Origin: Mobula hypostoma
Lineage: Eukaryota
DNA length: 64,000 nt
NCBI RefSeq assembly: GCF_963921235.1
Contig: NC_086108.1
Span: forward strand, 11,346,001-11,410,000
Direction of reading: 5' to 3'
Of the stretch, positions 1-61,496 are shown one piece after another. A program made the position numbers and the translations under genes. The notes under the pieces were generated by a model that was given only the letters and a program-made list of their open reading frames with translations, ran no database searches and was not told the DNA's origin. Numbering within the stretch: position 1 is the stretch's first letter; every line of letters starts with the position of its first letter.

Positions 1-730
1 AAGCTCCTCCTGGGCAGGGCGCGGATCACCACCCGACAGAGGCAAGGGACAGGAAGGGACAGAACCAACTGCAGGTAACGGCAAGATGGCCTGGCTTACC
101 CGATGGGGGCAAGAGACAGGAAGGGACAGAACCAACCGTAGGTAACGGCAAGACGCCCTGGCTTACCTGAGCGGAGGTAAGGGACAGGAAGGGAGCTAGG
201 TACAGGGTGGCTCCAAGACAAGACTGCAGGCGAGATGAGGCGAGAGTTACCAGCAAGACAAGGCAAGGCTTCTGGCAAAGCAAGGCCAGACAGAACTTCA
301 GGCGAGGCGAGAGTTACCGGCAAGACAAGGCAGGGCTTCAGGCGAGGAAATAGAAGGCAGAGGAAGGGATACAAGGAGTAAGGACAAGAACAATCCAGCA
401 GCCACGCCTGGGTCTCTGGAGGTATTTATGCAGCCAGCCCCAACGAGCATCAGCTGCCTCAATTAGCTCAACAAGGACAGAAACAGGGTAGACAGGAAAA
501 CCTGGAGCAAGGGTCGATGGACCGGACCGTGAACCGGAATACGAACTTCACAGACCGCACCATGATAGGAGCGCCCCTCCCCCCCCCCACCACCCCATGG
601 GAGTCTCTTGGTGACCAAACAGGGTATCCAGACTATGGACGACCCGGGCGGGTGGGAGAGTATTAAACCGAAAGGAACCCTGGGTGGCAAGAGGAAAGAG
701 ACAGTGTCTATGTCGCTGGGTCCATGGTGG

Positions 731-742
731 GCTGGATTGTTC
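731..742 (-). promoter_or_regulatory. Self-priming primer-binding site of copy A
   Basis: Element-sense GAACAATCCAGC immediately follows the 5' LTR. It is the exact complement of element-sense GCTGGATTGTTC at 399-388 (1828-1817 in the other LTR, one G-U change), about 24 nt after a CATAAATA box at 430-423. Confidence 0.75.
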
Positions 743-999
743 TGTCATAAGGAGGTGGCTGGGAACGGACCCAAGTGCAAGACACAGACACTGAAGTACT
801 AGGGTCAGGACTAGGATACAGGGCGATGGCAAGGAGATAGACAGGAAAAGCAGGAACCTCGAACAGGACTGGACAAGGGAGCTAGGAGCCCGGGCTTGGA
901 CTCTGAGCCAGAGACTGGACAAGGACCCAGTACCTGGATCTTGCCTCTGGCTCAGACCCCAGAACTAGGCAAGGTCGAGGCTTGGCAGGCAGGCAGGAT

Positions 1000-1500
1000 G
1001 AGGCTGGAGTCTTCAGTCTAGAGGCTAGAGGTGAGGCTTGGCAGGAGGCAGGAGGCTGGAGTCTTCAGTCTAGAGGCTAGAGGTGAGGCTTGGCAGGAGG
1101 CAGGAGGCTGGAGTCTTCAGTCTAGAGGCTAGAGGTGAGGCTTGGCAGGAGGCAGGAGGCTGGAGTCTTCAGTCTAGAGGCTAGAGGTGAGGCTTGGCAG
1201 GAGGCAGGAGGCTGGAGTCTTCAGTCTAGAGGCTAGAGGTGAGGCTTGGCAGGAGGCAGGAGGCTGGAGTCTTCAGGCTGGAGTCTTCAGGCTAGAGGCT
1301 GGGCGGGAGGCTGGAGTCTTCAGGCTTGAGGCTGGGCGGGAGGCTGGAGTCTTCAGGCTTGAGGCTGGGCGGGAGGCTGGAGTCTTCAGGCTTGAGGCTG
1401 GGCGGGAGGCTGGAGTCTTCAGGCTTGAGGCTGGGCGGGAGGCTGGAGTCTTCAGTCTTGAGGCTGGGCGGGAGACTGGAGTCTTCAGGCTTGAGGCTAG
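1000..1500. repeat. Tandem repeats inside LTR: ~5 x 52-bp unit, then ~6-7 x 33-bp unit
   Basis: GCTGGAGTCTTCAGTCTAGAGGCTAGAGGTGAGGCTTGGCAGGAGGCAGGAG, then GCTGGAGTCTTCAGGCTTGAGGCTGGGCGGGAG, read directly. Confidence 0.95.
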
Positions 1501-2271
1501 GTAGGCTCCTCCTGGGCTGGGTGCGGATCACCACCCGACGAAGGCATAGGACAGGAAGGGCCCAACCACAGGTAACGGCAAGACGGCCTGGCTTACCTGG
1601 GCGGAGGCAAGGGTCAGGAAGGGAGCTAGGTACAGGGTGGCTCCAGGACAAGACTGCAGGCGAGATGAGGTGAGAGTTTCCAACAAGACAAGGCAAGGCT
1701 TCTGGCAAAGCAAGGCCAGACAGAACTTCAGGCAAGGCGAGAGTTCCGGCAAGACAAGGCAGGGCTTCAGGCGAGGAAACAGGAGGCAGAGGAAGGGATA
1801 CAAGGAGTAAGGACAAGAACAATCCAACAGCCACGCCTGGGTCTCTGGAGGTATTTGTGCAGCCAGCCCCAATGAGCATCAGCTGCCTCAATTAGAGCTC
1901 AACAAGAACAGAAACAGGGTAGACAGGAAAACCTGGAGCAAGGGTCGATGGACCAGACCGTGAACTGGAATACGGACTTCACGGACCGGACCATGACACA
2001 AATAGATGTCGTGTGGAGGCTTGCGAGCCTCAGGAATTGTGTCAGGTGATGCCATCTCAGGACCAGCCATGTTGAAATGGCTGTGGACAAGATGCCAGAT
2101 GTAGATCGATCCAACCCCGGCTCCTGAACAGACAGACTTGCATCTGCTCCACCTGCTCCTCCGGGCCACACTTCAATTAGAAGTGTGAGTGCCATACAAA
2201 ATGACAATTAATGTAGTTTCCCAACCTCCCAGTGCCAGTCCCCTGTCAAGTTTTAATACCTTGATTTCCAC

Positions 2272-6487: not shown

Positions 6488-9225
6488 AAAGTTCGAAGTA
6501 CATTTATTATCCAAGTATGTATATTGGAATCTACCTGGAGACTCACCTTGCTGCAGGCAGCCACAAAACAAAGAAACACAAAGAAAAGAAACCACACTCT
6601 GATGATCATCAAACATCCAATGTGTTAAAAAAGAACAAATCTTGAAAACAGTAAAAAGTAAACAAATAACATAAACCACAGAATCTCCGAAAGTGTGTCC
6701 ACAGCCACAGAGCCACTGAGGTGAGTGAAGCTGGTCCACGATCACCACGGCTGCAGGGAACAGCTCAGTGCCCAGGCAAGTGAAGATGGTCCAGGAGCTT
6801 GAAGGCCGCAGGCCACAGTCACAGAGTCAGTTCAGTGCTGAGTGAGTGACGATGGCTGTGACCACAGTCACAGAGTCAGTTCAGTACTGAGCGAGTGACG
6901 ATGGCTGCAGGTCACAGTCACAGAGTCAGTTCAGTACTGAGCGAGTGACAATGGCTGTGACCACAGTCATAGAGTCAGTTCAGTGCTGAGGGAGTGACGA
7001 TGGTGGCAGGTCACAGTCACAGAGTCAGTTCAGTACTGAGGGAGTGACGATGGCTGCAGGTCACAGTCACAGAGTCAGTTCAGTACTGAGCGAGTGACAA
7101 TGGCTGCAGGTCACAGTCACAGAGTCAGTTCAGTACTGAGCGAGTGACAATGGCTGCAGGTCACAGTCACAGAGTCAGTTCAGTACTGAGCAAGTGACAA
7201 TGGCTGTGACCACAGTCACCGAGTCAGTTCAGTGCTGAGGGAGTGACGATGGTGGCAGGTCACAGTCACAGAGTCAGTTCAGTGCTGAGCGAGTGACGAT
7301 GGCTGTGACCACAGTCATAGAGTCAGTTCAGTACTGAGGAGTGACGATGGCTGCAGGTCACAGTCACAGAGTCAGTTCAGTACTGAGCGAGTGACGATGG
7401 CTGCAGGTCACAGTCACCGAGTCAGTTCAGTGCTGAGGAGTGACGATGGTGACAGGTCACAGTCACAGAGTCAGTTCAGTGCTGAGGGAGTGACGATGGC
7501 TGCAGGTCACAGTCACAGAGTCAGTTCAGTACTGAGCGAGTGACGATGGCTGCAGGTCACAGTCACCGAGTCAGTTCAGTGCTGAGGAGTGACGATGGTG
7601 ACAGGTCACAGTCACAGAGTCAGTTCAGTGCTGAGGGAGTGACGATGGCTGCAGGTCACAGTCACAGAGTCAGTTCAGTACTGAGCGAGTGACGATGGCT
7701 GTGACCACAGTCACCGAGTCAGTTCAGTACTGAGCGAGTGACGATGGCTGCAGGTCACAGTCACAGAGTCAGTTCAGTGCTGAGTGAGTGACGATGGCTG
7801 TGACCACAGTCACCGAGTCAGTTCAGTGCTGAGGGAGTGACGATGGTGGCAGGTCACAGTCACAGAGTCAGTTCAGTGCTGAGGGAGTAACGATGGCTGT
7901 GACCACAGTCACAGAGTCAGTTCAGTGCTGAGGGAGTGACGATGGCTGCAGGTCACAGTCACAGAGTCAGTTCAGTACTGAGCGAGTGACGATGGCTGTG
8001 ACCACAGTCACCGAGTCAGTTCAGTACTGAGCGAGTGACGATGGCTGCAGGTCACAGTCACAGAGTCAGTTCAGTGCTGAGCGAGTGACGATGGCTGTGA
8101 CCACAGTCACCGAGTCAGTTCAGTGCTGAGGGAGTGACGATGGTGGCAGGTCACAGTCACAGAGTCAGTTCAGTGCTGAGCGAGTGACAATGGCTGTGAC
8201 CACAGTCATAGAGTCAGTTCAGTACTGAGCGAGTGACAATGGCTGTGACCACAGTCATAGAGTCAGTTCAGTACTGAGCGAGTGACGATGGCTGTGACCA
8301 CAGTCATAGAGTCAGTTCAGTACTGAGCGAGTGACGATGGCTGTGACCACAGTCATAGAGTCAGTCCAGTGCTGAGGGAGTGACGATGGCTGCAGGTCAC
8401 AGTCACAGAGTCAGTTCAGTGCTGAGCGAGTGACGATGGCTGTGACCACAGTCACCGAGTCAGTTCAGTGCTGAGGGAGTGACGATGGTGGCAGGTCACA
8501 GTCACAGAGTCAGTTCAGTACTGAGGGAGTGACGATGGCTGCAGGTCACAGTCACAGAGTCAGTTCAGTGCTGAGGGAGTGACGATGGCTGCAGGTCACA
8601 GTCACAGAGTCAGTTCAGTACTGAGCGAGTGACGATGGCTGCAGGTCACAGTCACAGAGTCAGTTCAGTGCTGAGGAGTGACGATGGCTGCAGGCCACAG
8701 TCACAGAGTCAGTTTAGTACTGAGGTTTCTTGATCAAATCTCACAAATAATAAAAATAAATATTAAAGGAAAACACGAAGAACATGAACTGCAGAGTCCC
8801 CAAAAGTGAACCACAGTTGTTCAGTGCCGAGGCAAGTGAAGCCCGTTCTGGGGCCTGACGGCAGCTCCCCAAACTCTGTGGTACAGGACCCAGGACTTCT
8901 GCACCTTCTGCCAAGAGCAGCGAGAAGTGAGAGAGACGGGTCAAAGGCAAGCAGACGGCTCTATACACCTGTTTTATTGCTACTCTCTACCTCAACAATT
9001 TTAACCTTGCTCGATGCTTTATTCAGCAGAGAATAATGGAGCTGACCACGAGGTCATTTTTCACCATTAGAAAGCGACACAGCCTCGCTCAGCAATGGCC
9101 GCTACACTCCATGCTGAATCTCCCAGGAGATCGTAAAAATGTCTGGTTGTTTAGTCATCTCAGAGGTAATCTTTGAAAGGGAAATTAGAGGCGGCAGTTA
9201 ATGGCATTTCAGAAGAAGTGTGACA
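6488..9225 (-). mobile_element. Family X non-autonomous retroposon hosting a minisatellite; 5' end probably continues at 14406-14475
   Basis: AAAGTTCGAAGTACATTTATTATCCAAGTATG tail and CAGGCAGCCACAAAACAAAG motif. 14406-14475 resembles the reverse complement of the family 5' end at 28111. Confidence 0.6.
6812..8725. repeat. Minisatellite, 49-50 bp unit, about 38 copies
   Basis: Unit CACAGTCACAGAGTCAGTTCAGT(A/G)CTGAG(C/G)GAGTGACGATGGCTG(CAGGT/TGAC), head to tail with no unique spacers. Confidence 0.97.
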
Positions 9226-14240: not shown

Positions 14241-15175
14241 TGTACTTACATAGTTTAGTGCTTCCTGCACTCTGGTTGATCGTTCATTGATTCTGTTATA
14301 GTTACTACTCTCTGGATTTGCTGAGTATGCCCACATGAAAATGAATCTTAGGATTGTATATGGTGACATATATGTGCTTTGATGATAAAATCTACTTTGA
14401 ACTTTGAAGAGTAGTATCTGTTAATTTTATGAGCTGTCTGCAAGGTGTTGCCATTGGTTTCTGGCACCTTCTTGCTATCTTGCTATACCTTCTAAAACTT
14501 TCCCATCCATGTAACTGTCCAACTGGCTTTTACAAGCTGTACCTGCCTGAACCATTTCCCTTGGAGGATCATTCCACATTGACACCACTGTCTGGGTAAA
14601 ATAATTTGTCTTGCCTCTGTCACGGTCCAGTCCATGAAGTCCACATTCCGGTTCACGGTCCAGTCTGTGGATGCCGTATTCTGGCTATTCCTTTTTTCCC
14701 TTGTTCCGTTGGGTGCCTTAATCGAGGCACCTGATTCTCGTTTCGGGCTGGCAACATAAATAGCTCTGGGATCCGGTGATTCCTTGCTGGACTGTCCTTG
14801 TCAGTAACCTCGTCAAAATCCCCGTCAAGTTAACCCGCCAGAGAGAGACTTGAGCCGCTGTCTGTAGTTCCTGGGCCGCGTTGAGGGCTCGCCGCTACTT
14901 GGAGCCTATTCGTGTCAAGATAAAGAACAGACTATCGTTGTGTGGTTTTGTCTCTCCATGTTCTCTCCTCCCCAGGGTAGGTCCAGCCGTTTGCTGCTAC
15001 CCTGAGGGGGGTACGGTCTCAGTGTTCTGTGTCCTGGGTGTAAGAAGAGTTCCGGTTCTATATCCTGTGTCCAAGGAGGAGTCCCGGCTCTGTGTTCTGT
15101 GTCTTGTGCCTTAGTCAAGTCTGAGCCTAGTCCAAGTCAAGAGTCAAGTTCCAAGTCCAAGTCGAGAGTCAAGTT

Positions 15176-16555
15176 CGTGACGGGATCCTGAATTATCCCT
15201 ATGAACTATGCTTTTAAGACAGAGAGATAGAGAGGTGTCCAACACAGACACCTTGTAATTAAGAGAGAGAGAGAGGCGATGACTGCTTGGAGATGGTGTT
15301 CTGGTTTCTCTGCAGAATGTTTACACTTTTGCAAGGACACTGCCAGCTTCTGTGTTCTTACAGAAAGAGAATGGAGGAGCTACGTGATGGATAGCTGGTG
15401 TTCAGCATGGTGAGATAACTAGAAGGTCAGCTGATAGACTGACAGACACATAATTTTGGACACTGGATGAGCTTTGTTGTGCCCACAGAAAGGTGGGTTT
15501 TTGGAGGATTGATCAGGAGGATCAAACAGTGGCTCTCACAGTGTGGAAAAGGTGTGACCGGTGGGGAGTTATCAGTGTGTCAACCCTTGCCTGGGTTGAT
15601 AACCTCTCCACAGAAAATGGTGGTCTCCTTGTTGTGGTCACATTCGGTGACTTTAAAGGAAGAGGAGAGGGGAGAGAAAGGCTTGAAACAGAAGAAACCT
15701 AGTGACAAAGAGGTCACTGTTTGGACTCTCTCTCTCTCTCTCTAAATAGCTTGTAAGGGTGAGTTTGAGTTCCATTCAAATACGAAGGTGTGATTGTCAT
15801 GTAGTTAATCCACTGGAGTGGGTTCTCTGGTGAGGGGAGTACCTTTGTGGATGCCATTTGTGAGTTACCCTTGTCTGGGTGTGGTAGTTCACTGAAGAAA
15901 GGCACCCCTGTGGTAAATCACTGTTGGAGTTATTTCATATGTCGTGGAACTGGTTAAGTGGCCATCACGTTGTGTGTTTGGGGTTGGTTCCCTTGCAGAG
16001 GGTCCCCTTATTGATAAGCTACTGTTGGTGATAATCCATATGCGGATTCTGTTTGAGTATCCTATGGCCACCACTTGGGAATGACTCGTAGCTGAATTCA
16101 GGTGTGGCACCACTTGTGTTGAAAGGGTATTCGTTGAAGATCACTGTTGGTGATACTTCGTGTGTGGAGTGGAACAACTTCGGAGATAAAACCTACTACT
16201 ATTGTTATTTTGTACTGCTGTCATGGAATCTGTGGAATATCGCCGTAATTGCCTTCTCTCGGCATTCACCCTGGATTACAAATATCTCTCTCTCATCACC
16301 TATTCTGTGGATGAACTGAACTTCCATACTTTACCATCTCAAGACTCTAAGCCTTGTGTTCCCCAAGCTCAATAGTTTGGGAGTTATATTTGCACATATA
16401 TATACACGTAACACTGTTAGCATGTTTGATTTATCCGGTTATATATGACTGTATTACGTAGTTACTAATAAAAATAGCTTATGTTAGCACTAATACCAGA
16501 CTCTGGCTGTTTTCCATTTCTGCTGGCTCTTTAACCTGTCATGGGGTGCGTGACG
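15176..16555 (+). mobile_element. Solo LTR (Gmr1-like Gypsy family) inserted in the 5' LTR of copy B
   Basis: Absent from the 3' LTR. Ends CGTGACG...CGTGACG (decayed TG..CA), flanks AGTT/GGTT. 3' part AATAAAA...CCAGACTC...TCCATTTCTGCTGG resembles the LTR end at 43570-43658. Confidence 0.75.
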
Positions 16556-16975
16556 GGTTCCAAGTCCAAATCCGAGTCAAGTCCAAGCCAAGCCGAATCA
16601 AGTCGCAAGACCAAATCGAGAGTCAATTTCCAAATCCAAGTTGAGAGTCAAGTTCCAAGTCCAAGTCGAGAGTCAAGTTCCAAGTCCAAGTCCAAGTCAA
16701 ATCCAAGCCAAGTCCGAGTCAAGTTCCAAGTCCAGGTCAAGAGTCAAGATTCAAGTCCAAGTCGAGAGCCAAGTTCCAAGTCCAAGTCGAGTCAAGTTCC
16801 AAGTCCAAGTTGAGAGACAAGTTCTAAGTCCAAGTCCGAGTCCAGTCCAAGCCAAGTCCTAGTTCTAGTCAAGAGCCAAGTCTAGACCCAGGTACCGAGT
16901 CCCAGCCAAGACCCAAGTCCTCAGTCATCACCTGAGTTTCCTGTCAAGTTCAAGTCCCAAATCCAAGTCCAGATT
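16556..16975. repeat. Degenerate CAAGTC-based tandem array within LTR (also 15110-15175 and 17788-17990)
   Basis: Repeated CCAAGT/CAAGTC/GAGTCAAGTT units; longer in the 5' LTR than in the 3' LTR. Confidence 0.9.
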
Positions 16976-18324
16976 TTCCGATTTGTCACTCAATGTCTAC
17001 CTTCGTGTTATTATTTTGTCCTTGTTCCTTGGCTTCCCTAGCATTCTTAATAAATATAGTCCAGTTCTTCGTACTTCAGTGTCTGTGTCTTGCATTTGGG
17101 TCCACTTCCATCGCCCCCTTATGACAGAATGGCCCAGTCAAACATGGCCCCATTGACACAGACATGGTCATGAAACTCTCGCCATACAGGGTTCCCTCTT
17201 GTTGAAAACACCCCTACCTGCCTGGGTCGTCGATGATCTGGGCGAGCCTGTTGGATCACCAGGAGGCTCCCATAGTAGGGGTGGGGGGGTGGGGTTGATA
17301 CTGTCACGGTCCGGTCCAGGAAGTCCGCATTCTAGTTCACAGTCCAGCCCGTGGATTCCGTATTCTGGCTATTCCTTTATTCCGTTGGGTGCCTTAATTG
17401 AGGCACCTGATTCTCGTTTCGGTCTGGCAACTTAAATAGCTCTGGGGTCCAGTGATTCATTGCTGGACCGTCCTCATGAGTAACCTCGTCAGAGTCCCTG
17501 TCAAGTTAACCCACCAGACTGAGACTTGAGCCGCTGTCTGTTGTTCCTGGACAGGGTTGAGGGCTCGCCGCTACTTGGAGCCTATTCGTGTCAAGATAAA
17601 GAATAGTCTATTGTTGTGTGATTTTGTCTCTCCATGTTCTCACCTCTGCTGGGTAGGTCCGGACGTTTGCCGCTACCCTGAGGAGGGAATGGTCTCAGTG
17701 TTTTGTGCCCTGTGTCTAAGAAGAGTCCCAACTCTATGTCCTGTGTCCAAGAACGAGCTCTGGCTCAGTGTTCTGTGTCCTGTGTCTAAGTCAAGTCTGA
17801 GCCTAGTCCAAGTCAAGGGTCAAGTTCCAGGTCCGGGTCAAGTCCAAGCCAAGTCCAAGTCCAGTCTAAGCCAAGTCCTAGTTCTAGTCAAGAGCCAAGT
17901 CTAGAGCCAGGTACTGAGTCCCTGTCAAGACCTGAGTCCTGAGTCATCACCAGAGTTCCCTGTCAAGTTCAAGTCCCAAGTCCAAGTCTAGTTTTCCCGG
18001 TTTGTCACTTAACGTCTACCTTCGTGTTATCATTTTGTCCTCGCTCCTTGGCTTCCCTAGCATTCTTAATGAACATAGTCCAGTTCCTAGTACTTCAGTG
18101 TCTGTGTCTTGCATTTGGGTCCGCTTCCATCACTCCTTTATGACAGCATCAGAGGGGACGCCACTTCTGAGCAGTCACCATTAATGTGAGGAGATGTTTC
18201 AAGTGGTTTTTGAATGCAGAGGAACCGTTTTTCACAGACTCAGTACAGCTCTGACTCTGTAGATGAGACAGTAGTGTGCAAATAACAGAGTCTGTGCACA
18301 ACGCTGAGAAACTGTCTCTAATAA

Positions 18325-20821: not shown

Positions 20822-21515
20822 TGGGAGGGGATTTGATAGAGGTATACAAAATGATGAGGGGTTAGATAGGGTAAATGCAAGCAGGCTTTTTTCCCACTGA
20901 GGTTGGCTGGAACTACAACTTGAGGTCATAGGTCAAAGGCCCAAACTTCAAAGGCTCGTTTATTTTCAAAGTATACAACTCAGAAATTCTTCTTCTCCAA
21001 GTAGCCGTGAAACCAAGAAAGAAAAGGTGAAAAGCGAAAAGATTAAGGGGAACATGAGGGGAAACTTCTTCAATCAGACTGTGAAATGAGCTGACAATGC
21101 AAGTAACCGGAAATCTGCAGATGCTGGAAATTCAAGCAACACACATAAAAGTTGCTGGTGAGCTCAGCAGGCCAGGCAGCATCTCTAGGAAGAGGTGCAG
21201 TCAACGTTTCAGGCCGAGACCCTTCGTCAGACAAAGGATCTCGGCCTGAAACGTCGACTGCACCTCTTCCTAGAGATGCTGCCTGGCCTGCTGCGTTCAC
21301 CAGCAACTTTTATGTGTGTTGACAGTGCAAGTGGTGGATGTGAGCTCGATTTCAAGGTTTAAGAGCTTCGGATAGGCAATGGATGGTAGGGGTATGGAGG
21401 GCTATGGTCCCAGTTGCAGGTCAATGGCAGTAGGCAGTTTAAATGGTTCGGCACAGACTAGATGGGCTGAAGGGCCCATTTCTGTGCTGTACTTTTCTGT
21501 GACTTGATGACTCTA
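20822..21515 (+). mobile_element. CR1-type 3' fragment interrupted by small inserts
   Basis: GGGGATTTGATAGAGGTATACAAAAT...GATGGGCTGAAGGGCC...TCTGTGCTGTA. Confidence 0.7.
21105..21321. mobile_element. Penelope-derived foldback element carrying hammerhead motifs, with ~13-bp TSD
   Basis: 21137-21321 is a near-perfect palindrome centred on 21229. Minus arm reads CTGACGA-AGGGTCTCGGCCT-GAAACGTT-GACTG. Flanks TGACAATGCAAGT (21092-21104) and TGACAGTGCAAGT (21320-21332). Confidence 0.8.
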
Positions 21516-31574: not shown

Positions 31575-33685
31575 GGGGGAATGAGAGGATGAGGAGGGTG
31601 TGAGTCATTGAGGGAGTGAGGGAATGAGGGGGTGAGGGGATGAGGAGTTGAGGAGATGAGAGGGAGGAGGGGATGAGGGGATATGGAGATGAGGGATGAG
31701 AGGATGGGGATGAAGGGATGAGAGGGATGAGAGGATGGGGATGAGGGAGTGAGATAATGAGATTAGGGGATTAGGGAATAAGGTGGATGAGGGGTGAGGG
31801 ATGAGGGAGGTGAGGGGGATGAGGGGTATGATGGAGTGAGGTAATGAGATGAGGGATGGGGATATGAGGGGTTGAGGGAATGAAGAGATGAGGGATGAGG
31901 GGGTTGAGGTAATGAGATGAAGGATGAGGGACTGAGGGCTGTGATGGATAAGGGGTTGAGGGGATGAAGGAAGGGGGATGAGTGAATGAGGGGTTGAGAG
32001 AGTGAGGAAGTGAGGGTTGAGGGGATAAGGTGGATTGGAGATGATGAGTGAGGGATGAGGGATGGGGGTGAGGGGGATGAGGGGTATGAGTGGGTGAATA
32101 TATGAGATGAGGGATGAGGGATGAGGGGATGAGGGATGAGGGTTGAGGGACAAAGGGATGAGGAATGGGAGTGATGAGGAGGATGAGGTTATGAGGAGGA
32201 TAAGGGTATCAGGAAATGAGGGGAATAAGGGGATGAGGGGACTAAGGGAATGTAAGGGATGAAGTAATGAGGGGTGATGGATGAGGGAATGAGGGATTGA
32301 GGGAATGAGGAAGTTATGGATGAGGGATAAAGGGATGAAGGGGATGAGTGGGTGAGGGATGAGGGAATGAAGGATAAGGGGATAAGGGGAATCAGGGATG
32401 AAGGATGGGTGGGATGGGGGAATGAGGGGGATGAGAGGATGAGGAGGATGAGAGTGAGGTAATGAGGAGATGAGGGGATGAAGGGAATGAAGGAATAGGG
32501 GGGTTGAGGGAATGGGGGATAAGAGAATGAGAGGTTGAGGGAATGAGGTGAGGGATAAGTGGATGAGGGATAAGGGGATGAGCAGGATGAGGGATGAGGG
32601 GTATAAGGGAATGAGGATGTTGAGGGAATGAGGGATGAGGGGGATAAGGGATAAAGGGATGGAAATGAGGGGGATGAGGGATGAGGGGTATAAGAGAAAG
32701 AGGGCTTTGAGGGAATGAGGAATGAGGGGGATGGGGGATAAGGGGATGAGGGGGATGAGGGGATGAGGGGGATGAGTGTGAGGGGTATAAGGGAATGAGG
32801 GATGATGGGTTCAGGGAATAAGGAGGTGAGGGATGAGGGTGAGGAATAAGGGGATGAGGGTGCTGTGATAAGGGGATGAGGGATGAGGGAGATGAGGAAA
32901 TGAGGAAATTAAGGGGATGAGGGATGAGGGAATAAGGGATGAGTGTTTGAGTGGGATGAGGGGATGGGAGATGAGGAAATGAGGGGTTGAAGGAATAAGG
33001 AGGTGAGGGATGAGGGGATGATGGACAGGGGATGAGGGGTATGAGGGGTATATGGGGATGAGGGGGTTGAGGGAATGAGGGATGGGGATGAGGGGTTGAG
33101 GGAATAAGGAGGTGAGGGATGAGGGGATGAGGGATAAGGGAATGAGGGGGTGAGAGGTGAGCAATAAGGGGAATAGGAATATAGGGATGAGGGAATGTGG
33201 GATAAGGGGATGAGTGGGATGAGGGGTCAGGGGGATGAGGGATGAGGGGGTGAGGGATGCGTGTGGTGAGGAGATGAGGGGGATGAGAGGATGAGGAGGA
33301 TGAGAGATGAGGGAATGAGGTTGAAGGAATAAGGAGGTAAGGATGAGGGGGATGTGAGGGATGAGGGGATGGGAGAATGAGAGAATGAGGATGAGGGTGA
33401 GGGGAATAAGGGGTGGGGGTTGAGCAGGATGAGGGGATAAGAGATGAGGGAATCAGGGGTTGAAGGAATAAGGAGGAGAGTGATGAGGATGAGGTAATGA
33501 GATGAGGGAATGAGGGGATGAGGGAATAAGGAAGTGAGGGATGAGGTGATGAGGGGGATGAGAGGGTGAGGGATGAGGGTTTGAGGGATAAGGGGATGAG
33601 GAATGAGGTGTGAGTGGGATGAGGGGCCAAGGGGGGAAGAGGAAGGAGGGGATGAATGGGATGAGGGGGATGAGGAATGAGGGGC
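31575..33685. repeat. ~2.1-kb purine-rich degenerate (GGGATGA)n low-complexity tract; resumes at 35549-35665
   Basis: Almost C-free G/A tract read directly; interrupted by a Rex-type LINE. Confidence 0.95.
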
Positions 33686-35548
33686 TGAGGCAGTGTAGCA
33701 TACAGGAGGTGTGGACAGGCATTGGTTTCAATCAGCCTAGCTGCAGAGCCTTGGAATGCAGCCATGAATGGGCTAATGAGTTAAACCGATTTTTCAATAG
33801 GTCTGACAATTGCACTCCTGATCACACCCCCCTCAGCACACCAGCCCAGGTGCTGAGGCACCTAATGCTCCTTCAGTACTAAATACTCCCCTCCTCCCTC
33901 CTCCCCCATCCAGTTCAACACGTGGATGAACAACACAGGCTACCTCTGTCTACACCCCATCCTTCCCCTGTACCTACTATCCACATCTCCACATCCCAAT
34001 CTTCACCTCCCCCAGCCCTCACCTTCCTCTAACTCCCCATTCATCATGGACTCATCTTCACTACTGAGCAGGTGAGAAGGGCTCTGGGGATACAGACACG
34101 GCAAAGCATTGGGACCGGATGGTATGATCCTGAAGGAGTGTGCTGAGTAGCTGTGCGGTGTCCTCCAGCGCGTTTTCAACCTGAGTCCCAGCCTGGAAAG
34201 GGTCTCCACTGTGTGGAAAGCACCATGTGTGGCCCAGTGCCGAAGAAGGGACAACCAAAAGTCTTGAATGACTCCCGTATAGTGGCCCTGACCTCACACA
34301 CCATGAAGACCCTTGAGAGGCTGGTCCTGGCTCACCTCCGACCCCAGGTCAGATCGACCCTCGATCCCCTGCAGTTTGCCTACCATGAGCACATTGGAGT
34401 CGACGATGCTGTCATCTACCTGCTGAACAGAGCCTACTCCCATTTGGATAAGTAGGACAGCACTGATTTGGATCATGCTTTTTGATTTCTCCAGTGCTTC
34501 TAATACTATACAGCCCTCATTGCTGGGGGAAAAACTCTGTTCAATGCAGGTTGACACCTCCATTGTATCCTGGGTAATGGACTACCTGACTGGCAGGTCA
34601 CAGTTTGTGTGGCTTCAGAGCTGTAAGCGGCATTGTGGCCTCATAGGGGACTGTATTGGCTCCCTTCCTGTTTACCGTGTATACCTTAGACTTTCGGTAC
34701 AACGCTGAGTCGTGTCATCTGCAGAAATTCTTCGATGACTCAGCAATAGTTGGGTGTATAAAGGGAGGACAGGAGGATGAATACAGAGCCCTGGTGGAGG
34801 ACTTTGTCAAATGGTGCAAGCTGAAATCATCTGCAGCTCAACATCAGTAAGACAAAGGAGATGGTGATGGACTTTAGGAAGCCTAAGCCTGCTACACTGC
34901 TCTGTTACTATTGATGGTGAGGACATGGATATGATGGGAACCTACAGGTACCTGGGGTGCATCTGGATGACAGACTTGAGTGGAGCACCAACACAGAGGC
35001 TGTGTATAAGAGGCGCCAGTCATCTCTACTTCCTGAAGAGACTGGCCTCTCCTTTACATGTTCTACCAGTCTGTTGACACCAGTATAACCTTCTATCTGG
35101 TGGTGTGCTGGGACAGTGGCATCAACACGGGTGATGCCAACAGGTTCAATAAACTGATTAGAAAGGCTGGTTCTGTTATAGGAGTCAAACTGGACACTCT
35201 GGAGGTTGTAGTAGAACAAGGGACCCTGTGGAAATTCCTGGCAAATCCAGACAACATTTCTCACCTTCTGCACGCCACCTTGGCTGAGCAGCAGAGCACT
35301 TTTAATAATAGATTAAGATAACTGCGCTGCTCCAAAGAACACTATATGAGGTCATTCTTGCCCTTGACCATTAGGCTCTATAATGAGTCAACCTATAGCC
35401 GGGGAAGTGATAACCCCTTTCAGTTAGACTGTTTGTGGTAACTTATTTTTTATTCTTTTATACTTCTCTTCTAATATTTATATATGAACACTTGTAATGC
35501 TACTGTGACACTGTAATTTCCTTTGGAATCAATAAAGCATCTATCTAT
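33686..35548 (+). mobile_element. Rex1/Babar-type LINE, degenerate
   Basis: ANELNRFFNR, LNDSRIVALTSH, DPLQFAY, LFDFSSASNTIQP, QKFFDDSAIVG; AATAAAGCATCTATCTAT tail. Confidence 0.88.
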
Positions 35549-61314: not shown

Positions 61315-61496
61315 GTGCTGGAAATCCGAGCAACACACGCAAAATGCTGGAGGAACTCAGCAGGCCAGGCAGCATCTATGGAAAAAAGTACAGTCGATTA
61401 GTCCATCTGAAGGGTTTTGGACTGAAACGTCGACTGTACTTTTTTCCATAGATGCTGCCTAGCCGGCTGAGTTCCTCCAGCATTTTGTGTGTGTTG
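61315..61496. mobile_element. Penelope-derived foldback element (related to 21105)
   Basis: ~67-bp inverted arms at 61331-61397 and 61430-61496; loop ends in GAAACGTCGACTG with a decayed hammerhead core. Confidence 0.8.

What the first reader, a model, noticed from the sequence alone, without database searches (positions are those of the whole stretch)
388..1828. Self-priming miniature LTR element: PBS pairs with its own predicted transcript start
Seen: directly after the 5' LTR the element reads GAACAATCCAGC (742-731), with no TGG tRNA-type PBS. The exact complement GCTGGATTGTTC sits in the LTR (399-388; 1828-1817 with one G-U-compatible change), about 24 nt downstream of CATAAATA. Known: Tf1/sushi-group Gypsy elements prime reverse transcription with their own RNA 5' end instead of a tRNA. 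Inference: this is a non-coding TRIM-like parasite that keeps the self-priming fold.
Basis: partly seen in the sequence, partly recalled or inferred. Interest (0 to 1): 0.75.

Follow-up and report, generated by a model that had tools for sequence, protein, structure and literature searches.

The report
Gene-less, self-priming-type LTR retrotransposon family
This is an old copy of a multi-copy, gene-less jumping element whose primer site pairs with the predicted first bases of its own RNA, so it likely started copying itself without a host tRNA, a trick already known from yeast Tf1 and proposed for its vertebrate relatives.

Summary
The element lies on the minus strand and is 2,425 bp: 5' LTR 1998-743, a 175-bp internal part, and a 3' LTR running from 567 past the window start. 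It has a near-perfect 5-bp TSD. The 12 nt after the 5' LTR are complementary to a 12-mer 31 nt after the start of the TATA-like box. It belongs to a real family (152 exact hits of one 29-mer, some in tandem arrays). All 48 subfamily-A copies scored keep 10-12 of 12 pairs. Coding chromovirus families in the same genome carry other PBS letters with matching LTR letters at the same offset. A second stem (U5 with leader) holds the PBS in its loop, as in the Tf1 'pretzel'. The internal part is likely a gag start joined to the post-chromodomain tail. 'Miniature/TRIM' does not fit: LTRs are about 1 kb and TRIMs are under 1 kb in total. The transcription start is unmapped, subfamily B pairs imperfectly, and a test for primer-templated PBS correction was inconclusive. 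This is a known mechanism in a new non-autonomous family. The scan noted the same before in this genome (e1-8034992) and in others.

The parts
743..1998 (-). 5' LTR, 1,256 bp, TGTCA...TGACA, with 52- and 33-bp tandem repeats inside the predicted R region
1852..1859 (-). TATA-like box of the 5' LTR, mutated (CACAAATA; CATAAATA in the 3' LTR)
1817..1828 (-). Predicted RNA 5' end and self-primer (12 nt, one G-U with the PBS), 31 nt after the first base of the TATA-like box
   Evidence: start site predicted, not mapped
765..793 (-). U5 arm of the predicted U5-leader stem
731..742 (-). Primer-binding site GAACAATCCAGC, directly after the LTR, no TGG
702..725 (-). Leader arm of the U5-leader stem; starts at an ATG homologous to the gag start of coding relatives
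568..742 (-). Internal domain, 175 bp, non-coding; 3' part resembles the pol tail after the chromodomain
574..596 (-). Polypurine (G-rich) tract before the 3' LTR
   Evidence: length varies among copies
1..567 (-). 3' LTR (994 bp in all; continues 427 bp beyond the window start, ends at G000:C50:11345574)
388..399 (-). 3' LTR copy of the self-primer motif, exact complement of the PBS
423..430 (-). TATA-like box CATAAATA of the 3' LTR
1999..2003 (-). Target-site duplication, upstream copy (ATTTG against ATGTG beyond the 3' LTR, 4 of 5)
14618..18145 (+). Second copy in the window, subfamily B (PBS at 17127, 175-bp internal, TSD 4 of 5, insertion in its 5' LTR)

Best explanation
This is a decayed copy of a multi-copy, gene-less LTR element with 5-bp target duplications, likely a deletion derivative of Tf1/sushi-group chromoviruses, that likely primed its reverse transcription with its own RNA 5' end. 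Shown: LTR-PBS-PPT-LTR anatomy, family-wide complementarity of the PBS to a 12-mer at a fixed offset from the TATA-like box, compensatory changes across families, and homology to chromodomain-bearing Gypsy elements. Inferred by analogy with Tf1: transcription starts at that 12-mer. The RNA 5' end folds back over about 1.1 kb onto the PBS, which sits in the loop of a U5-leader stem. The RNase H of a coding relative's reverse transcriptase, supplied in trans, cuts after base 10-12, and the freed 3'-OH primes minus-strand DNA at the LTR edge. The G tract primes the plus strand and the helper's integrase inserts the cDNA. This copy is probably dead: its 5' TATA-like box and self-primer are both mutated.
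For: Subfamily A: 48 of 48 scored copies pair 10-12 of 12 (30 pair all 12) and 0 of 48 have TGG in the first 8 nt after the LTR. The motif starts 31 nt after the box in 41 of 48. Position R7 is U-A in A (47 of 48) but C-G in B (16 of 18) and C (4 of 5). Coding families have other PBS letters with matching LTR letters; in 11 of 17 coding copies the best complement falls 31 nt after a TATA-like box (read by eye). With 7 families, the true R-to-PBS assignment is matched or beaten by 2 of 5040 permutations, itself included. In the focal RNA each of the 12 pairs has probability about 0.97 across 1,086 nt. U5-leader duplex: -36.3 kcal in 48 A copies against -16.4 +/- 3.4 with shuffled leaders. Perfect 5-bp TSD in 21 of 39 complete copies, at least 4 of 5 in 32 of 39. 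Coding relatives carry gag, DUF4939, RT, RNase H, integrase, SH3_Tf2-1 and Chromo. The A U5-PBS-ATG junction matches two of them at 78-79% over 90-96 nt, E 3e-16 and 5e-14.
Against: No start site was mapped. Subfamily B amplified with a poor duplex: A-C mismatch at R6 in 16 of 18, mismatch at R11 in 18 of 18, mean -9.0 kcal, and its R pairs better with the C-type PBS (-10.2) than with its own. In pseudoknot-free folds of predicted 5' RNAs, the R:PBS duplex formed in 12 of 24 A copies and 0 of 13 others (the crossing U5-leader stem competes in such folds). Within A, the PBS and R are not clearly more conserved than their flanks. No coding element with this exact PBS and LTR was found among 50 coding loci or by two patterns, so the helper is unidentified. 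The host tRNA comparison covered tRNA-Lys(UUU) only.
Confidence: 0.85

Rival explanations
1. The pairing is an inherited relic. The element descends from self-priming chromoviruses but was primed in trans, by the cleaved 5' primer of a helper RNA or of a co-packaged sibling, so its own R:PBS match need not be exact.
For: B amplified with two mismatches in cis. The A-type R pairs with the PBS of coding family D at 11.6 of 12 positions on average. No coding element with the same PBS was found.
Against: Coding-family R sequences pair poorly with the A, B and C PBS (7-8 of 12 pairs, -2 to -6 kcal). R and PBS changed together between the non-coding and coding families and between A and B/C.
Confidence: 0.07
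2. A tRNA or tRNA fragment primes these elements, and the LTR match is secondary.
For: 6 of 18 B copies have TGG near the LTR end. Recalled, not tested: the B-type PBS partly resembles the site that copia-type elements use for a half-molecule initiator tRNA.
Against: The TGG in B arises at a CpG position and is absent from 48 of 48 A, 5 of 5 C and 7 of 7 other copies. PBS letters differ by family and follow the LTR letters. The best match to 9 tRNA-Lys(UUU) sequences was 6 nt.
Confidence: 0.05
3. Chance complementarity in one internally deleted, dead copy.
For: Both LTRs carry tandem repeats and differ by 4-10%.
Against: 0 of 2000 shuffles gave the exact match. There are 152 exact hits of an internal 29-mer against 0 for the control, the internal length is constant, and copies have their own TSDs.
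Confidence: 0.01

Closest known systems
Tf1/Tf2 of Schizosaccharomyces pombe (also Tj1, Tosmo1-3, Tcry1)
   Same: The RNA 5' end is complementary to a PBS that follows the 5' LTR. A flanking duplex forms between PBS-adjacent and LTR sequence ('pretzel'; 10.1101/2022.12.06.519325, passages). Tf1 is cut by RNase H between bases 11 and 12 (PMC7175516, passage). Tandem copies share one LTR (PMC11042837, passages).
   Different: No genes here. The predicted primer is 1,086 nt from the PBS in this copy, across tandem repeats (185-431 nt in 16 of 17 coding relatives). The third duplex is short or variable. Priming is inferred, not shown.
Vertebrate Tf1/sushi (V-clade) chromoviruses, e.g. sushi-ichi; Butler et al. 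2001 (seen only as cited in PMC6317226 and the bioRxiv paper)
   Same: TGTCA...TGACA ends fit the Sushi att motifs (PMC3601003, passage). AATAAA lies near the LTR 3' end in subfamily B. The coding relatives here have chromodomain-bearing integrase and the same R:PBS layout.
   Different: Non-autonomous, with a 138-189 bp internal part. No RT tree with named references was built, so clade placement rests on domain content and DNA homology.
TRIMs (plant TRIMs, biv-TRIM, Cassandra/Helenus/Ajax, zebrafish LTR-11_DR)
   Same: Non-coding short internal domain with PBS and PPT, 5-bp TSD, tandem arrays, and likely mobilisation in trans.
   Different: TRIMs are under 1,000 bp with 100-250 bp repeats and a tRNA-type PBS (PMC6934838, PMC10886601, passages). 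This family is 1.5-2.8 kb with LTRs of about 1 kb and a self-complementary PBS.

Membership tests
Non-autonomous LTR retrotransposon | Two LTRs with TG...CA ends, PBS and PPT, no coding capacity | tested here: met
   internal domain 175 bp; no stop-free frame of 150 aa or more inside it
Non-autonomous LTR retrotransposon | Amplified as a unit with integrase-type TSDs | tested here: met
   152 exact internal 29-mers; 5-bp TSD perfect in 21 of 39, at least 4 of 5 in 32 of 39
Tf1/sushi self-priming group | PBS complementary to the element's own LTR, not to a tRNA CCA end | tested here: met
   subfamily B imperfect
Tf1/sushi self-priming group | The complementary motif is the RNA 5' end | tested here: inconclusive
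   Fixed 30-32 nt offset from a TATA-like box; only contigs were available, which cannot show starts
Tf1/sushi self-priming group | Three-duplex 'pretzel' structure | tested here: inconclusive
   Central duplex and U5-leader duplex predicted; third duplex only 4 bp in A and variable elsewhere; pseudoknot not foldable with ViennaRNA
Tf1/sushi self-priming group | Descent from chromodomain-bearing Ty3/gypsy elements | tested here: met
   DNA homology of U5-PBS-gag start and of the pol tail to coding copies with SH3_Tf2-1 and Chromo
Tf1/sushi self-priming group | Placement in the clade on an RT/IN tree with named references | not tested
   No named reference sequences were fetched; the element itself has no RT
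Tf1/sushi self-priming group | RNase H cleavage that frees the primer | not testable with these tools
   Needs biochemistry or cDNA end sequencing
TRIM | Total length under 1,000 bp, terminal repeats 100-250 bp | tested here: not met
   39 complete copies are 1,509-2,773 bp; 5' LTRs 547-1,378 bp
TRIM | Short non-coding internal domain with PBS and PPT | tested here: met
   138-189 bp in 78 copies
TRIM | PBS complementary to a tRNA | tested here: not met
   No TGG in 48 of 48 A copies; direct tRNA comparison limited to Lys(UUU)

The most novel reading that the evidence does not exclude
The copies record actual use of the self-primer. Daughters of masters with an imperfect R:PBS duplex often carry a PBS rewritten to the exact complement of their own R, as retroviral PBSs revert to the tRNA. 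That would give a purely genomic read-out of self-priming in a vertebrate, on an RNA that closes a kilobase loop of minisatellites. Hints: in A, the exact-match A at PBS5 outnumbers the mirror CpG decay 37 to 10 and is scattered on the tree. In B, 2 of 18 copies fix both faults at once and are not sisters.
Probability: 0.3. Interest if true: 0.55.

Novelty: new member of a known kind. Interest (0 to 1): 0.3.

Why it matters
Self-priming has been demonstrated for Tf1 and implicated in elements from fungi to vertebrates (PMC4600332, passage). A stripped-down family with at least hundreds of copies shows which cis signals survive when all genes are gone: the TATA offset, the R:PBS duplex, the U5-leader stem and the PPT. 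It also suggests that the duplex tolerates loops of about 1 kb and, in subfamily B, two mismatches. It is a warning for annotators, since tools that need a tRNA PBS will miss such elements. It confirms and extends a known mechanism rather than changing it.

Tried and rejected
RNA evidence: the look-up of sequencing runs listed 8 runs, none on record as RNA, all contigs with small shares: no RNA holder listed. Laying 4 of the 8 gave no start or end sites. tRNA set: the Rfam search returned near-identical genes, 9 distinct sequences, all Lys(UUU), so the direct tRNA test is partial. Exact helper: two patterns for this PBS followed by an intact gag start gave 0 hits and 1 hit, and that hit (L202) is another non-coding subfamily whose 3' LTR motif matches its PBS poorly. 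A first unanchored scan of the gag loci picked mostly wrong junctions and was replaced by an anchored one. Primer-templated correction: inconclusive. In 64 distinct A copies PBS4-5 reads CA 26, TG 8 against 323 and 284 at 26 control CpG sites (Fisher p 0.008), but single control sites are as skewed (28:9, 20:4, 7:25), so the p value is not trustworthy. The tree is weak (5 of 61 branches starred). The 'corrected' B state is also the state of A and C, so retention or recombination explains it too. A non-CpG test in one small subfamily had only 9 hits, 7 G and 2 A, and the two A copies are sisters at weak support. Cofolding primer and U5-leader together fails because the structure is a pseudoknot. 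Rfam found nothing near threshold in 1-2100. The Pfam scan of the internal domain did not run because of stop codons. Two Lin and Levin papers are not held. The label 'TRIM' was rejected on size.

Full report
Observation. Both strands of 1-2600 were read. On the minus strand an LTR begins TGTCA at 1998 and ends TGACA at 743. GAACAATCCAGC follows at 742-731, then an ATG at 725, a G-rich tract at 596-574, and a second LTR from 567. The neighbouring genome stretch shows that this LTR ends 427 bp before the window start. The element is 2,425 bp, flanked by ATTTG and ATGTG. The complement of the PBS lies at 399-388 (exact) and 1828-1817 (one G-U), 24 nt after the end of CATAAATA or its mutated 5' copy CACAAATA. 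Of 2000 shuffled LTRs, 0 held the exact complement and 3 a one-mismatch version. The LTRs are 95.6% identical over the first 250 nt, 92% over 470 nt and 90% over the last 390 nt, so the insertion is old.

A family, not one deleted copy. A DNA search of the genome (3.48 Gb) scored 40 of 2027 first-look candidates, all matching; the 30 fetched have the same short internal part. A second copy lies in the window at 14618-18145 and brought in 30 more loci. An internal 29-mer has 152 exact hits against 0 for the control. Only 15 of 29 and 4 of 29 known copies match that pattern, so copies with an internal part number at least in the hundreds. Of 85 copies analysed, 7 were dropped (3 without a recognisable 3' LTR, 4 without a findable R), leaving 78: A 48, B 18, C 5, other 7. 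One row filed as A (L054) falls outside A on a later tree. Internal parts are 138-189 bp. Of 39 copies with both ends in reach, 21 have a perfect 5-bp TSD and 32 at least 4 of 5. They are 1,509-2,773 bp long with median LTR identity 91.5%. Five of five clustered sites fetched are tandem arrays in which internal parts share LTRs.

Pairing across copies. In A, 30 of 48 copies pair all 12 positions, 14 pair 11 and 4 pair 10; none has TGG. The motif starts 31 nt after the first base of the TATA-like box in 41 of 48, 30 nt in 3, and the box was not found in 4 (the first four R letters helped place the motif). Position 8 is G-U in 27 copies and U-A in 15, so the exact match in the focal copy is one of two common states. 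Position 7 is U-A in A and C-G in B and C, a true compensatory change. Against the reading: B has an A-C mismatch at position 6 in 16 of 18 and at position 11 in 18 of 18, and pairs better with the C-type PBS than with its own.

Coding relatives. Pfam searches found many DUF4939 and SH3_Tf2-1 loci (150 scored each). Natural ORF pieces of two copies carry gag, RT, RNase H, integrase and SH3_Tf2-1, and a third has Chromo at E 1e-9. From 50 coding loci, 17 with a clear LTR-PBS-gag junction and a 5' R were used; L158, L161 and two false junctions were left out. They form four groups with different PBS letters, each with a matching LTR motif. The motif was found by searching for the best complement, yet in 11 of 17 it lands 31 nt after a TATA-like box. 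Across 7 groups ('other' left out), own-family duplexes average -9 to -19 kcal, while coding R against non-coding PBS gives -2 to -6. The true assignment is matched or beaten by 2 of 5040 permutations; families are related, so this is not a strict probability. The A junction from U5 through PBS to ATG matches L158 and L170 at 78-79%. The 3' part of the internal domain matches the pol tail after the chromodomain: 84% over 38 nt at E 5e-6 for B, and only E 0.009 for A. The internal domain is therefore likely a gag start joined to a pol end. No coding copy with this exact PBS was found.

Structure. The predicted RNA from 1828 to 690 folds with all 12 R:PBS pairs at about 0.97 probability. U5 (793-765) can also pair with the leader (725-702) in a stem of about 22 bp with the PBS in its loop: -36.3 kcal in A against -16.4 shuffled, -31.6 in B, and -18.7 to -30.3 in coding groups (weak in D against its shuffle). 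The two helices cross, so standard folding gives one or the other: R:PBS won in 12 of 24 A copies and 0 of 13 others. Tf1 needs such a three-duplex 'pretzel' (10.1101/2022.12.06.519325, passages) and is cut by RNase H between bases 11 and 12 (PMC7175516, passage).

Mechanism. Shown: anatomy, family, complementarity, covariation, fixed TATA offset and chromovirus ancestry. Inferred: start at the motif, fold-back, cleavage by a helper's RT/RNase H, priming at the LTR edge, PPT priming and integration. Tandem arrays resemble those that Tf1 forms by integrase-independent insertion (PMC11042837, passages); unequal LTR recombination would give the same, and this was not tested. I looked for a genomic trace of primer use, a PBS rewritten to the exact complement of R. 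Counting the 81 rows by hand gave CG 32, CA 37, TG 10, TA 2. Control CpG sites are individually as skewed, the tree is poorly resolved, and the B cases may be retained ancestral states. The result is inconclusive.

Comparison and novelty. Self-priming is the described hallmark of the Tf1/sushi group in fungi and vertebrates (PMC6317226, PMC4600332, passages). Sushi LTR ends fit (PMC3601003, passages). TRIMs are defined as under 1,000 bp with a tRNA PBS (PMC6934838, PMC10886601, passages), which this family fails. Searches for TRIM with self-priming, for non-autonomous with self-priming and for shark/chondrichthyan Gypsy terms gave 1, 1 and 0 papers, and none describes such a family. Butler et al. 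2001 and the Lin and Levin papers were seen only as citations, and Repbase could not be searched, so prior annotation is possible. That the host is a ray comes from earlier scan notes and was not tested. Those notes already report the same finding on another piece of this genome. Verdict: real, well supported, known mechanism, new non-autonomous family; interest 0.3.

Noticed in passing
window 14618-18145 (+): Second copy of the family (subfamily B) with an imperfect R:PBS duplex and AATAAA 78 nt before the LTR end.
   Followed up: yes
window about 15175-16556 (+): Insertion of about 1.4 kb inside the 5' LTR of the second copy, with similar 'GTGACGGG' words at both edges; it looks like a solo LTR of an unrelated family.
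   Followed up: no
5' LTR ends of 78 copies: AATAAA or ATTAAA in the last 200 nt is present in 16 of 18 B copies but 2 of 48 A, 0 of 5 C and 0 of 7 others. Three of five coding copies printed lack it in their last 135 nt. How A-type RNA is 3'-processed is unexplained.
   Followed up: partly
L292-L296: Tandem arrays LTR-internal-LTR-internal-LTR with shared LTRs, up to at least four internal parts in L292.
   Followed up: partly
L076:2227-3247: A subfamily-A LTR is inserted inside the gag region of a coding chromovirus copy.
   Followed up: no
window 390-415 (-) and homologous LTR sites: The end of U3 is partly complementary to the start of R (TCCAG...CTGGA in this copy and in B). In the 3' LTR such a hairpin could mask the second R copy from the PBS.
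   Followed up: no
window 6793-8725 and 31600-33800: A 49/50-bp-period tandem array, and a long purine-rich GAT/GAG low-complexity tract with strong GC skew.
   Followed up: no
window 21137-21321 and 61331-61496: Near-perfect inverted repeats: 92-nt arms 1 nt apart (95%) and 67-nt arms 32 nt apart (96%).
   Followed up: no
G000:C90 about 4.0-4.3 Mb: Dense cluster of near-identical tRNA-Lys(UUU) genes.
   Followed up: no
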